Shown here: piece by piece, positions 55,327-61,461 of the stretch
How positions within the stretch are numbered: the stretch's first letter is position 1
Layout of the letters: each line of letters starts with the position of its first letter
Assembly (NCBI RefSeq): GCF_003790525.1
Contig: NZ_CP033635.1
Strand: one strand, 5' to 3'
Origin: Escherichia coli
Lineage (GTDB): Bacteria > Pseudomonadota > Gammaproteobacteria > Enterobacterales > Enterobacteriaceae
DNA length: 64,000 nucleotides
Notes under the pieces: model-generated
The model's database searches: none
What the model was told of the DNA's origin: nothing
What the model saw: only the letters and a program-made list of their open reading frames with translations
Translations under genes and position numbers: made by a program

Positions 55327-56277
55327 TCAGCCTGCGATAGCACCAACAACCTGTAATACTTCGTCACGCGCTTGTTCTGGTTTTTCACTGTCAAGCCAGT
55401 GAACCCCTTCCCAACCACGCAGCCAGGTTATCTGCCGCTTCGCCAACTGTCTCGTGGCGCAAACACCTCGATAAACCATTTCATCGTATGAGATTTCGCC
55501 TTCAAGGTAAGACCACATCTGGCGATAACCCACGCAACGAATGGAAGGCAAATCCGTATGCAAATCTCCTCGGGCAAAAAGCGCCCGGACTTCTGCTTCA
55601 AAACCTGAAGCCAACATCTGATGAAAACGCTGCTCAATTCGTTGATGGAGCAGTTCACGGCTCGCCGGGGCGATGGCGAACTGATGCACCTGATACGGTA
55701 GAGCGTCTCCTGACGTTTGCGTCAGTTCCGTTAAAGTTTTACCCGAAATGAAAAAAACTTCCAGTGCCCGGGAAAGCCTTTGTGGATCATTTGGATGAAT
55801 CCTTGCTGCCGCAACCGGATCGATCTCCTGAAGTTGACGATGCAATGACTCCCAACCTTGCTCTGCCGCCTGTTGCTCAATTCTGGCCCGCACTTCCGGG
55901 TCTGCCGACGGTAGCGGCGACAACCCTTCCAGCAATGCCTTGAAATACAACATCGTACCGCCCACTAACAGTGGGATCCGCCCCGCCGCGGTGATATCGG
56001 CCATTTCCGCCAGCGCATCGCGGCGAAAATCAGCAGCCGAGTAAGCCTGCGACGGATCGCGAATATCCAGCAATCGGTGCGGCGCGGCGAGTAACTCTTC
56101 AGCGTTCGGCTTCGCCGTCCCGATATCCATCCCTTTGTAAATAAGGGCAGAATCAACGCTTATCAACTCTACTGGTAAAATTTTACGCAGCTCAATGGCT
56201 AACGCCGTTTTACCGGAGGCCGTCGGCCCCATCAAAAAAATCGCCTTAGGCAGGCTCGCCTTACTGATATCACTCAT
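55327..56277 (-). CDS. miaA: tRNA dimethylallyltransferase MiaA
   Basis: 316-aa [33 protein letters not shown]... (P-loop). Confidence 0.94.
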
Positions 56278-58117
56278 CTTTCAGGGCTTTTATCGCCGGA
56301 TGTAAATCAACAGATTGTAACAGACCACCCGGCGGCGTTTTCACAAGTTGCGGACATAACCGTTCCACGTCCGCCAGCAGGGTTATGGCCTGTGCCATTG
56401 ACCACTGCGCATGTTCGCTCATCAGATTTCGTGCAATCCACTGCGCAATATTGCCAGGTTCGAATACGGACTGCTTCGCCAGGTAGCCTATCAGTTCAGG
56501 AATCAAGATTTGTAAATTTTGTTGGCGTAAGGGTAAAGGCACGGCCCTGATGGTCACATGCTGCGCATCGGACTGGAAATCAATACCCAATTCCGCCAGG
56601 GCAGACTGCGCTTTTTCTAATGCCGATTTTTCTTCGCCAGAAACTTTTAGCCGCAACGGAATAAGCAGCGGTTGGGCGCAAACTGGCGCTTCACCCGGCG
56701 TCAGTTGCGCCTGACGCAGCCAACGTTCTGCCACTGGCAAGGCTAAAAGTGAAATGTTTCCGTCGCGCTCCAGCAAGGCACAGTCGGAATGGACGATAGT
56801 CAGTACCCGACCAAAACTCTGACTGTTCGCCGCAAGTGCAGGTTCCTGCGGTTCTGGCGCTTTTGGTTTTTGCATCGGCGCGGGCGTTTGCAAAAGCTGG
56901 CGATACACTTCACCTTGCTGTTTCTGGTAACCTGGCTGCGCATTCGGCCAGGGGGCAGCCGGACGACTGCCTGAGGCGGGCGCAGGAGTGTAACGCGGAG
57001 CTACTGGCTCACGAACTGCCGGTTCAGCAAAATGATTGCGCCCCGCCGCCACGCGGTTTTCCGGAATAGCACGCGGTGCAGGTTGGGGTTCATCGTCCAG
57101 CGGTAGCGGCGTTTCCAGTTGCTGTTGTAGCACGCTCAGCACGCCCTGATAGATAAAATCATGCACCAGACGCGACTGATGGAAACGCACTTCGTGTTTG
57201 GCAGGGTGCACGTTGACGTCCACCTGATGTGGGTCGATCTCCAGATACAACACAAATGCCGGTTGCTGATCGGCCCCCAGTTTGTCTTCACAGGCCTGGC
57301 GGATCGCGTGATTGATCAGGCGATCGCGCATCATGCGACCGTTCACGTAGCAATACTGAATTTCTGCCAGGGCGGGCGTGGTGTGATTCGGATCGGCCAC
57401 CCAGCCGCGCAGGGTGAGATCGCCGTGTTGCCATTCAATCGCCAGCGCTTGTTCGAGAAAAGCGGTGCCGCAAATCGCGCCTAAGCGCCGTTCTTTTTGC
57501 CCGCCTTCCGGCACTGCACGGTACTGACGCACAATTTTACCGTTATGCGACAGGTTGATCGTGACGTCGAAACGCGCCAGCGCAATGCGGCGAATAATTT
57601 CATCGATATGGTTAAATTCGGTTTTCTCGGTGCGCAGGAATTTGCGCCGCGCCGGGGTGTTGTAGAACAGATCCAGCACCTCCAGCGTCGTTCCCACCGG
57701 ATGCGCCGCCGGTTTAACCGTCACGTCCATATCGCGCCCTTCGGCATAGGCCTGCCAGGCTTCCTGCTGTTCTGCGGTGCGTGAAGTGAGCGTCAGGCGG
57801 GAAACCGAACTGATACTCGCCAGCGCCTCACCGCGAAAGCCCAGGCTGATAATGGCTTCGAGATCGTCCAGAGAGGCGATTTTACTGGTGGCATGACGAG
57901 CCAGCGCCAGCGCCAGCTCATCTTTTTTGATACCGCAGCCGTTATCACGAATGCGGATAAGTTTCGCCCCGCCACGTTCGATATCAATATCGATACGCGT
58001 CGCACCTGCATCGAGGCTGTTTTCCACCAGTTCTTTGACTACCGACGCAGGTCGCTCGACCACCTCACCTGCGGCAATCTGGTTCGCCAGTTGTGGCGGT
58101 AAGACCTGAATTGGCAT
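56270..58117 (-). CDS. mutL: DNA mismatch repair protein MutL
   Basis: Start at [39 protein letters not shown] gives 615 aa; GHKL ATPase. Confidence 0.94.
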
Positions 58118-58126
58118 CAATCGTCC

Positions 58127-59464
58127 TTAGTTTGGCAGCGTACGATCTGGCGTCGTCACCGTACTGGCAGTTTGTGCCGTTGCACCCTGCGGCGCAGATT
58201 GCATCGGATGCGCAAGGAAATAATTGCGCAGACCTTTATAAATGGCTTCTGCCAGCTGTTGTTGGTAATCGTCGCTCGCCAGCAAACGTTCTTCGCTGTT
58301 GTTGCTGATAAAACCGGTTTCGACCAGTACTGATGGGATATCCGGCGAACGCAGAACGCCAAGGCTGGCGTGTTCTGGTCGACGTTTATGAATTTCGCCA
58401 ATGCGTTGCAACTGACTGATCATACTGGTCGCTACATCATACCCTACCCGCTGGGAATGACCGAACTGTAAATCCAGCACCGCCTGGCTCAAATAGGGGT
58501 CAGACTGACTGTTCGCCAGCACATCGCCCGCTCCGCCCAGTAGCTCCGACTGTTTCTCATGCTGTTCCAGCCAGCTTGCCATCTCGCTGTTTGCACGACG
58601 GTTAGAGAGCACCCATACGGAAGCGCCAGTCGCACTGCGGTTTGGTGCGGCATCAGCGTGAATCGACACGAGGAAATTGGCGTTTTGCTTACGTGCCACA
58701 TCGCTGCGCCCCATCACCGAAATAAAGTAATCCCCGTCACGGGTTAAAACGCCTTTAAACATTGGATCGTCATTGAGCAAAGTACGTAATTTACGTGCGA
58801 TGGCGATGGTGACATTTTTCTCCCGCGTACCACCGGGGCCGATAGCGCCAGGATCCTGACCGCCGTGTCCGGCATCAATAGCGATGATAATTTTATCGCC
58901 AGTGTTAGCCGTCGCGCGCGCTGCCGGACGCGTTACCGTATTACTGCTGATAACACCCGTAGTGCGGTTACTTTCCGTTTTAAACGGATTGCGCGCCGGT
59001 TCGCTGACGCGCGGTGCGCCAACCGCAGGCGTTTCAACGCGTTTCGCAACCACAGGCGGCGGAGGAGGCGGTGGCGGCGCATCGGCGTTAATCGTAAAGA
59101 CGACAGTGTAATTGCTGCCATTCTGCCGCTTCACCGCTTCGGTTTTACCATTTTCGGTAAGATCGACCACCAGCCGTAGCGTTTGTGCATCTTTAGGCGT
59201 TCCAGAGCGAATCGCCTTCACCAGATTATTGCCGCTGAACAACAACGGCAGTCCCTGAATCACGCCCGTTTGTTTGATATCGAGCGCCACGATGCGTTTG
59301 CTTTGATGGCTAAACGCATAATCAGGATCGCCAATAAAACTCAACGTTATCCGCGCCTGTTGGTTGCCGTTAGAAACCTGAATATCAGAGAGCGTCGCGG
59401 CACCCACCTGCGCGCACAGCAGCAGCAACGTCGCTACCAACCAATTTCTGATGCGATACATCAT
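58127..59464 (-). CDS. amiB: N-acetylmuramoyl-L-alanine amidase AmiB
   Basis: Start at [30 protein letters not shown] gives 445 aa; poly-Pro linker; Amidase_3 domain. Confidence 0.92.
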
Positions 59465-59482
59465 CCCGCCACCTTTCAAAGG

Positions 59483-61461
<1,979 letters not shown>

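What the first reader, a model, noticed from the sequence alone, without database searches (positions are those of the whole stretch)
59049..59080. Poly-proline tract in AmiB encoded by a GGN-repeat (minus-strand CCN) simple sequence
AmiB contains a run of eight consecutive prolines ([11 protein letters not shown]), encoded by a short GC-rich triplet repeat. Such tracts are prone to length variation between strains and may tune the linker between the AMIN and amidase domains.
Basis: seen in the sequence. Interest (0 to 1): 0.15.

Follow-up and report, generated by a model that had tools for sequence, protein, structure and literature searches.

The report
Known eight-proline tract in AmiB
The eight-proline run in the E. 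coli cell-division amidase AmiB is real and its length does differ between strains, but it is an already described feature (the longest proline run in E. coli and a known ribosome pause site needing EF-P), so the finding is ordinary.

Summary
amiB (window 58127..59464, minus strand, 445 aa) encodes eight consecutive prolines at residues 130-137 (window 59054..59077), written with mixed codons: CCG CCA CCG CCT CCT CCG CCG CCT.

The tract starts two residues after the last AMIN-domain strand. It opens a linker of about 62 residues that is predicted to be disordered and leads to the Amidase_3 domain.

Among 5,425 complete E. coli genomes:
- about 84% have P8;
- about 13% have an interrupted six-codon form, PPSPPP (B2 strains such as Nissle 1917, EC958, ATCC 25922);
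- about 2.5% have P6;
- 19 have P5, 14 have P7 (three independent one-codon deletions) and 1 has P11;
- no P9 was found.

Across 79 Enterobacteriaceae species genomes the tract is always present, with 3-10 prolines (mode 8). Its codons are almost fully scrambled, yet only 3 of 561 residues are not proline, so selection acts on the protein. More distant homologues mostly lack it.

The tract is already published as the longest proline run in E. coli and a ribosome pause site. Published asymmetry scores rise from about 1 in wild type to 7-10 in Δefp. A role as a stiff spacer is inferred, not shown. Interest is low.

The parts
58127..59464 (-). amiB coding sequence (445 codons plus stop), N-acetylmuramoyl-L-alanine amidase AmiB
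   Evidence: ORF. The ATG start at 59464 matches the RefSeq amiB CDS length of 1338 nt in K-12-type records. Pfam Amidase_3 scores 2.8e-48. A 200-nt stretch is 100% identical to amiB of E. coli SMS-3-5.
59084..59395 (-). AMIN domain (aa 24-127), an all-beta septal-targeting and peptidoglycan-binding domain
   Evidence: Pfam AMIN covers 27-112 at 17.9 bits, below the 20.5 cut-off. The AlphaFold model has eight strands from 24 to 127 with pLDDT of about 70-89. Foldseek aligns the model to AmiC 4BIN over 408 columns and to the PilQ B2 domain 4aqz at E = 2.9e-4 (that this is an AMIN-type domain is my own knowledge).
59054..59077 (-). Eight consecutive proline codons (aa 130-137): CCG CCA CCG CCT CCT CCG CCG CCT
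   Evidence: This is the only proline run of 5 or more in six frames of the window. Published ribosome-footprint peak (PMC4402525). Published asymmetry score of about 1 in wild type against 6.7-10.5 in Δefp (10.1101/2024.04.15.589488, Table S3).
58892..59077 (-). Inter-domain linker (aa 130-191, 62 residues; 13 Pro, 8 Ala, 8 Thr, 7 Val), opened by the proline tract
   Evidence: pLDDT is below 50 for 130-155 and 162-188, with no secondary structure. No solved structure covers it, since 8C0J starts at residue 190. PMC10214136 describes the AmiB linker as flexible and left it unbuilt in cryo-EM.
58211..58891 (-). Amidase_3 catalytic domain (aa 192-418)
   Evidence: Pfam hit covers 194-413. PDB 8C0J covers 190-422, and Foldseek gives TM 0.97 to 8c0j_A. 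H200, E215 and H269 are invariant in the 87-sequence alignment.
58130..58210 (-). Low-confidence C-terminal tail (aa 419-445)
   Evidence: pLDDT is below 50 for 423-445.

Best explanation
This is the known polyproline tract of enterobacterial AmiB.

Shown:
- Eight prolines begin two residues after the last AMIN-domain strand and open a linker of about 62 residues, predicted to be disordered, that leads to the catalytic domain.
- A proline run at this exact position is kept in every Enterobacteriaceae genome sampled (3-10 prolines, mode 8). The third codon positions are almost completely scrambled, so selection acts on the amino acids and not on a DNA repeat.
- Length changes by whole codons. 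Within E. coli this happens rarely and mostly as contraction, giving lineage-linked alleles (P8 in most strains, PPSPPP in B2 strains, P6) plus a few sporadic ones (P5, P7 arising three times, P11).
- In K-12, which has the same eight prolines, ribosomes pile up on the tract. Passage depends on EF-P.

Inferred:
- The run forms a stiff polyproline-II segment of about 2.5 nm. This would hold the flexible linker and catalytic domain away from the peptidoglycan-bound AMIN domain while the catalytic domain reaches EnvC and its substrate.
- The exact number of prolines is only loosely constrained.
- The indels arise by replication slippage between adjacent CCN or GCC units.
For: Position and structure:
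- Sequence and codons.
- Domain limits.

Conservation:
- In 79 species genomes the first uninterrupted run is 3-10 long (counts: 3:1, 4:1, 5:12, 6:15, 7:15, 8:29, 9:5, 10:1), and 77 of 79 codon strings are distinct.
- Only 3 of 561 tract residues are not proline.
- 117 of 150 representatives of 50%-identity clusters, mostly 30-60% identical to the query, have no proline run of 3 or more, so the feature is clade-specific.

E. coli census:
- 868 of 5,425 genomes fall in the gapped identity band.
- Six-codon alleles number 846-852, of which PPSPPP is 689-718 and P6 is 128-163.
- P5 is in 19 genomes and P11 in 1.
- P7 is in 4 + 10 genomes, with three different codons deleted on different backgrounds.
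- No P9 was found on either main background.
- The P7 deletions remove one unit of CCTCCT or GCCGCC.

Translation:
- PMC4402525 reports a sharp footprint peak at the eight prolines.
- Table S3 of 10.1101/2024.04.15.589488 gives amiB PPP asymmetry scores of 1.0-1.24 (wild type), 6.7-10.5 (Δefp), 1.0-2.9 (ΔefpL) and 3.8-6.7 (Δefp+EfpL).

Linker flexibility and AMIN relocation: PMC10214136.
Against: - No experiment here or in the papers I could read tests what the tract does for AmiB function.
- The AlphaFold model has pLDDT below 50 over the tract, so it says nothing about a polyproline-II conformation.
- Lengths from 3 to 11 and an interrupted PPSPPP are all tolerated in nature, so any spacer role is insensitive to exact length.
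- Tract length shows no compensation with the rest of the linker.
- Natural deletions of 25-31 residues in the linker exist.
- The census relies on BLAST identity bands plus spot checks of 24 fetched sequences. Rare alleles with unusual codon strings could be missed.
- The ribosome data are for K-12 strains, not for this window's allele.
Confidence: 0.72

Rival explanations
1. The tract is kept mainly as a translational throttle. A long EF-P-dependent pause would couple the supply of AmiB to EF-P activity or growth state, or would give the AMIN domain time for export and folding. Lineage alleles (P5 to P11, PPSPPP) would set different throttle strengths.
For: The tract causes a strong pause, and the asymmetry score rises 7-10-fold in Δefp. 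The proline run is conserved in 79 species while the rest of the linker varies.
Against: No data link AmiB level or function to EF-P. In wild type the asymmetry score is about 1, so with EF-P present little throughput is lost. Run lengths from 3 to 10 between species, and PPSPPP in about 13% of E. coli, argue against a finely set pause. The pause could simply be a by-product of a structural requirement.
Confidence: 0.13
2. The tract is functionally neutral low-complexity sequence in a disordered linker. It would persist through mutational bias and drift, with its length wandering by slippage.
For: Length varies between species and strains. There is no compensation with the rest of the linker. 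Large linker deletions occur naturally.
Against: 558 of 561 tract residues are proline in 79 species even though 77 of 79 codon strings differ. Third positions have therefore turned over while first and second positions have not. The run never disappears in the clade. The rest of the linker is far more variable in sequence.
Confidence: 0.13
3. The tract is a hypermutable contingency repeat that switches AmiB properties at high frequency within populations.
For: It is a triplet-patterned, GC-rich stretch, and several length alleles exist.
Against: The longest perfect triplet tandem is 2 units. All changes are in frame, so there is no on/off switching. About 99.4% of 5,425 genomes carry one of three alleles, and the P6 and PPSPPP types share flanking SNPs that P8 lacks. 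Rare lengths total about 34 genomes, and many of those are clonal sets such as the E2348/69 records.
Confidence: 0.02

Closest known systems
E. coli K-12 AmiB polyproline tract (codons 130-137), described in ribosome-profiling studies
   Same: Same gene, same position, same eight prolines, and six of the eight codons are followed by identical codons in K-12. Described as the longest proline run in E. coli with a footprint peak (PMC4402525), and as EF-P dependent (10.1101/2024.04.15.589488 Table S3).
   Different: The window allele differs only by neighbouring substitutions: Ala129 instead of Val, a last proline codon of CCT instead of CCC, and Gly151 instead of Val. It is identical over 200 nt to strain SMS-3-5.
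EF-P-dependent polyproline stall motifs (XPPX/PPP) in bacterial proteins
   Same: Three or more consecutive prolines. Ribosome density upstream rises when efp is deleted. PPP is among the listed EF-P-dependent motifs in the same table.
   Different: It is much longer than the usual two or three prolines. It sits in an exported protein's inter-domain linker rather than in an active site or a regulatory leader.
AmiC (E. coli paralogue, PDB 4BIN): AMIN domain plus Amidase_3 domain
   Same: Same two-domain plan. The AmiB model aligns to 4BIN over 408 columns.
   Different: I did not examine the AmiC linker here. The proline tract is a property of the enterobacterial AmiB clade: 117 of 150 distant representatives lack any proline run of 3 or more.
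Proline-rich rigid spacers of periplasmic proteins such as TonB (from my own knowledge, not tested here)
   Same: An envelope protein in which a proline-rich segment separates an anchoring part from a working domain.
   Different: The TonB spacer is made of Glu-Pro and Lys-Pro repeats and is much longer. The AmiB tract is a short homopolymer followed by a flexible linker. No structural or functional data exist for the AmiB tract.

Membership tests
AmiB-type cell-division amidase (AMIN + Amidase_3) | Amidase_3 catalytic domain with conserved zinc-binding residues | tested here: met
   Pfam PF01520 scores 2.8e-48, 164.7 bits against a cut-off of 27. H200, E215 and H269 are invariant in 87 sequences; that these are the zinc ligands is my own knowledge. 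TM score 0.97 to the AmiB enzymatic domain 8c0j.
AmiB-type cell-division amidase (AMIN + Amidase_3) | N-terminal AMIN domain | tested here: met
   The Pfam AMIN hit is below its cut-off (17.9 against 20.5 bits). However, the AlphaFold model has an eight-strand beta domain at 24-127, which aligns with full-length AmiC 4BIN and with the PilQ B2 domain 4aqz (E = 2.9e-4; an AMIN-type domain by my own knowledge).
AmiB-type cell-division amidase (AMIN + Amidase_3) | Orthology: the tsaE-amiB-mutL gene order and near-identity to annotated amiB | tested here: met
   The neighbouring ORFs are tsaE-like (59483..59944) and mutL-like (56270..58120). RefSeq records show tsaE directly upstream of amiB. 5,425 of 5,426 E. 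coli genomes match, and the matches are annotated amiB.
EF-P-dependent polyproline stall site | Three or more consecutive proline codons | tested here: met
   Eight consecutive CCN codons.
EF-P-dependent polyproline stall site | Ribosome accumulation at the motif that increases when EF-P is absent | not testable with these tools
   Published evidence for K-12 strains only: a footprint peak (PMC4402525), and asymmetry scores of 1.0-1.24 in wild type against 6.7-10.5 in Δefp. Not measured for this window's allele, although the eight prolines are the same.
Hypermutable simple-sequence (contingency) repeat | A long perfect tandem repeat tract | tested here: not met
   The longest perfect triplet tandem is 2 units in the window and at most 4 in 79 species. 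The TRF score is only 38, with period 9.
Hypermutable simple-sequence (contingency) repeat | Frequent length differences among closely related isolates, giving on/off or graded switching | tested here: not met
   All variants are in frame. About 99.4% of 5,425 genomes carry P8, PPSPPP or P6. The PPSPPP and P6 alleles share flanking SNPs that P8 lacks, and the recognisable PPSPPP strains are all B2. Rare lengths total about 34 genomes.
Polyproline-II rigid spacer | The segment adopts an extended polyproline-II helix, and its function depends on that stiffness | not testable with these tools
   The model gives no secondary structure and pLDDT below 50 over residues 130-137. No solved structure includes the tract. 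The conformation is inferred from the general behaviour of proline homopolymers.

The most novel reading that the evidence does not exclude
The allelic series (P5, P6, PPSPPP, P7, P8, P11) could be natural variation in how strongly AmiB synthesis depends on EF-P. On this reading the interrupted PPSPPP allele, present in every phylogroup B2 strain I recognised (Nissle 1917, ST131, LF82), would relax a translational bottleneck on a septal amidase. That could have consequences for cell separation or envelope robustness when EF-P activity or proline-tRNA supply is limiting.
Probability: 0.08. Interest if true: 0.4.

Novelty: already known. Interest (0 to 1): 0.12.

Why it matters
It matters little beyond housekeeping. 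The tract is already a textbook-style example of an EF-P-dependent pause, and AmiB is a well-studied division amidase.

This work adds three things:
- a census showing that the tract is a conserved protein feature of Enterobacteriaceae AmiB, with loosely constrained length;
- evidence that E. coli lineages carry distinct alleles, in particular that the recognisable B2 strains have an interrupted PPSPPP;
- evidence that length changes are rare, whole-codon and mostly contractions.

This is useful for anyone using amiB as an EF-P reporter or comparing ribosome profiling between strains. It also offers a ready-made allelic series for testing whether polyproline length matters for a periplasmic linker.

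Tried and rejected
- **Synthetic P9 alleles.** I searched on both main backgrounds and found no ungapped match. P9 alleles with unusual codon strings could still hide among P8 hits at about 97% identity.
- **First synthetic P7 query.** It missed the K-12-type P7 class because background SNPs ranked it below P8 hits. That class surfaced only through the P5 query and was then counted directly. This shows the limits of a census based on identity bands.
- **Compensation test.** Tract length against the rest of the linker across 79 species gave no correlation, so it neither supports nor excludes linker tuning.
- **Tandem Repeats Finder.** It returned only a weak period-9 call.
- **Literature.**
  - The Doerfel et al. 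2013 paper (PubMed 23239624) and the PMC id I guessed for Peil et al. 2013 (PMC3780873) are not held. My recollection that AmiB was among the proteins tested in vitro with EF-P therefore stays unverified and is not used.
  - The supplements of PMC4140641 do not mention amiB.
  - The narnavirus preprint hit was a typo, 'amibgrammatic'.
  - A search for AmiB + efp + proline found only an unrelated paper.
- **Considered but not pursued.**
  - G-quadruplex potential of the G-rich plus strand, because there are only two-G runs and no tool for it.
  - Determining the ancestral length in Escherichia. The outgroups disagree: E. albertii has P6, Escherichia sp. MOD1-EC7003 has P5, E. whittamii has P8, Citrobacter has 5-8 and Salmonella has P5.

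Full report
**Observation**

The minus-strand ORF at 58127..59479 encodes AmiB. Using the ATG at 59464, which gives the same 1,338-nt CDS that RefSeq annotates in K-12-type records, the protein is 445 aa. Residues 130-137 are eight consecutive prolines at window 59054..59077, with codons CCG CCA CCG CCT CCT CCG CCG CCT. The string [11 protein letters not shown] spans 59048..59080, so the reported start is one base off.

The repeat is imperfect: the longest perfect triplet tandem is two units, and Tandem Repeats Finder gives only a weak period-9 call (score 38). It is the only proline run of five or more in any frame of the window.

**Where it sits**

- Pfam finds Amidase_3 at 194-413 (2.8e-48) and a sub-threshold AMIN match at 27-112.
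- I built an AlphaFold model from an 87-sequence alignment. It has an eight-strand beta domain from 24 to 127. Confidence collapses (pLDDT below 50) exactly from residue 130 to 188, and the catalytic domain starts at 192.
- Foldseek matches the model to the AmiB enzymatic domain 8C0J (TM 0.97), to full-length AmiC 4BIN over 408 columns, and to the PilQ B2 domain 4aqz, which I know as an AMIN-type domain.
- The tract is therefore the first eight residues of a linker of about 62 residues, rich in Pro, Ala, Thr and Val, that is probably disordered.
- No solved structure includes the tract. PMC10214136 describes the AmiB linker as flexible, left it unbuilt in the cryo-EM map of FtsEX-EnvC-AmiB, and proposes that the AMIN domain relocates on activation.

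**Does the length vary among E. coli strains?**

Yes. A 200-nt query matched 5,425 of 5,426 complete genomes. Of these, 868 fell in a 90-95% identity band, and the sampled members of that band span 194 bases instead of 200. Fetched examples show that the indel lies inside the tract.

I then ran targeted searches with natural and synthetic alleles and checked fetched sequences. Counts are out of 5,425 genomes.

| Allele | Genomes | Notes |
|---|---|---|
| P8 | about 4,540 (84%) | the remainder after all other classes |
| PPSPPP followed by Met | 689-718 (about 13%) | Nissle 1917, ATCC 25922, EC958, JJ1886, LF82, NRG 857C, ABU 83972; I know all of these as phylogroup B2 |
| P6 | 128-163 | |
| P5 | 19 | mainly the O127:H6 E2348/69 lineage |
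| P7 | 14 | three different one-codon deletions on different backgrounds: 3 + 1 + 10 genomes |
| P11 | 1 | strain EC42405 |
| P9 | 0 | not found on either main background |

The six-codon, P5 and P11 classes add to 866 of the 868 genomes in the gapped band, so the large indels are accounted for. The P6 and PPSPPP alleles share flanking SNPs that the P8 alleles lack. They are therefore old haplotypes, not recurrent slippage products. The P7 deletions each remove one unit of a two-unit repeat (CCTCCT or GCCGCC), as expected for replication slippage; the mechanism itself is an inference.

This census rests on BLAST identity bands plus 24 fetched sequences, so rare alleles with unusual codon strings may be missed.

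**Beyond E. coli**

A scan of one genome per species returned 80 loci. One of them was a contaminant fragment, which I excluded.

- In all 79 remaining loci a proline run follows directly after the conserved [ND]AD[AVTE] motif.
- The first uninterrupted run is 3-10 long (mode 8, median 7), and 77 of 79 codon strings are distinct.
- Allowing single interruptions, only 3 of 561 tract residues are not proline.
- Third codon positions have therefore turned over almost completely while the amino acid has been kept, which points to selection on the protein.
- Among the 120 closest database proteins, Citrobacter AmiB is mostly P8, with P4, P6, P7, P9 and P10 forms as well.
- In contrast, 117 of 150 representatives of 50%-identity clusters (mostly 30-60% identical to the query) have no proline run of three or more. 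The tract is a trait of the enterobacterial AmiB clade.
- Tract length does not trade off against the rest of the linker. Total linker length is 54-72 residues, and Spearman's rho is 0.09 with p = 0.43.

**What is already known**

- Supplementary Table S3 of bioRxiv 10.1101/2024.04.15.589488 lists asymmetry scores for each amiB PPP window: 1.0-1.24 in wild type, 6.7-10.5 in Δefp, 1.0-2.9 in ΔefpL and 3.8-6.7 in Δefp with extra EfpL.
- The tract is thus a documented EF-P-dependent pause site in K-12, which carries the same eight prolines.

**Interpretation**

The best-supported reading is that this is a conserved protein feature at the junction between the AMIN domain and the linker. Its translation needs EF-P, and its length drifts slowly by whole-codon slippage. 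That it acts as a stiff polyproline-II spacer of about 2.5 nm is an inference from the general behaviour of proline homopolymers. Nothing here tests it, and the tolerance of 3-11 prolines, PPSPPP and large natural linker deletions shows that exact length is not critical.

The rival readings rank as follows:
- A regulatory translational throttle and neutral filler are less well supported but are not excluded.
- A hypermutable contingency repeat is effectively excluded, because the repeat is imperfect, all changes are in frame, and the alleles are bound to lineages.

**Verdict**

The feature is already described in the literature and behaves as expected for a polyproline linker segment, so interest is low.

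Noticed in passing
window 58916-59008 (amiB aa 153-183); proteins P0007-P0017: Some E. coli and Shigella AmiB proteins are 420 or 414 aa because of in-frame deletions of 25 or 31 residues further down the linker. The deletion borders fall at short GC-rich direct repeats (…GCGCGC…). The P8 tract is retained. This shows the linker tolerates losing up to half of its length.
   Followed up: partly
L019 (Escherichia whittamii), just downstream of the tract: A 10-residue tandem duplication, [20 protein letters not shown], lengthens the linker. The protein is 455 aa.
   Followed up: no
window 59054-59077 and the same tract in L016-L095: CCC makes up 2.4% of tract codons against 9.6% of proline codons elsewhere in the same amiB genes, while CCA makes up 24.8% against 11.1%. 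An internal CCC, which creates a run of five C, occurs in only 5 of 79 species. This may reflect avoidance of frameshift-prone homopolymers or a decoding preference.
   Followed up: partly
L003 (NZ_CP144930.1, strain SCPM-O-B-9504) versus L020 (E. albertii type strain): This record is labelled E. coli, but its amiB segment is only 87% identical to the window. Its tract codons (CCG CCA CCG CCG CCG CCA) are the same as in E. albertii, which suggests misclassification or recombination.
   Followed up: no
L097 (NZ_CP033605.1, 'O157:H7 strain TR01'): It carries the rare P5 AmiB protein WP_032282036.1, shared with strain 14EC033. The other O157:H7 genome sequenced here (MB41-1, L005) has P8, and the O157:H7 rows span the P8 length. 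The strain label or its ancestry looks odd.
   Followed up: no
L071 (Collinsella sp. MAG contig, 1,060 bp) and L062 (Chryseobacterium sp. 18061): A contig binned as Collinsella encodes an E. coli B2-type AmiB (PPSPPPM), and a record labelled Chryseobacterium carries an Enterobacter-like amiB. Both look like contamination or mislabelling in public assemblies.
   Followed up: no
window 59012-59014 (amiB codon 151): The window allele has Gly151 (AVGAPR, GGC) where the other E. coli alleles examined have Val (GTC). The 200-nt stretch around the tract is identical to strain SMS-3-5.
   Followed up: no
E. coli genome search: Two matches to the amiB tract region lie on plasmids, and a few genomes have two places that match.
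   Followed up: no
protein P0230 (distant homologue, 565 aa): It has six prolines directly after a strand resembling the last AMIN strand (LVVDLYDAANEPPPPPPALAP). This may be an independent origin of the same arrangement.
   Followed up: no
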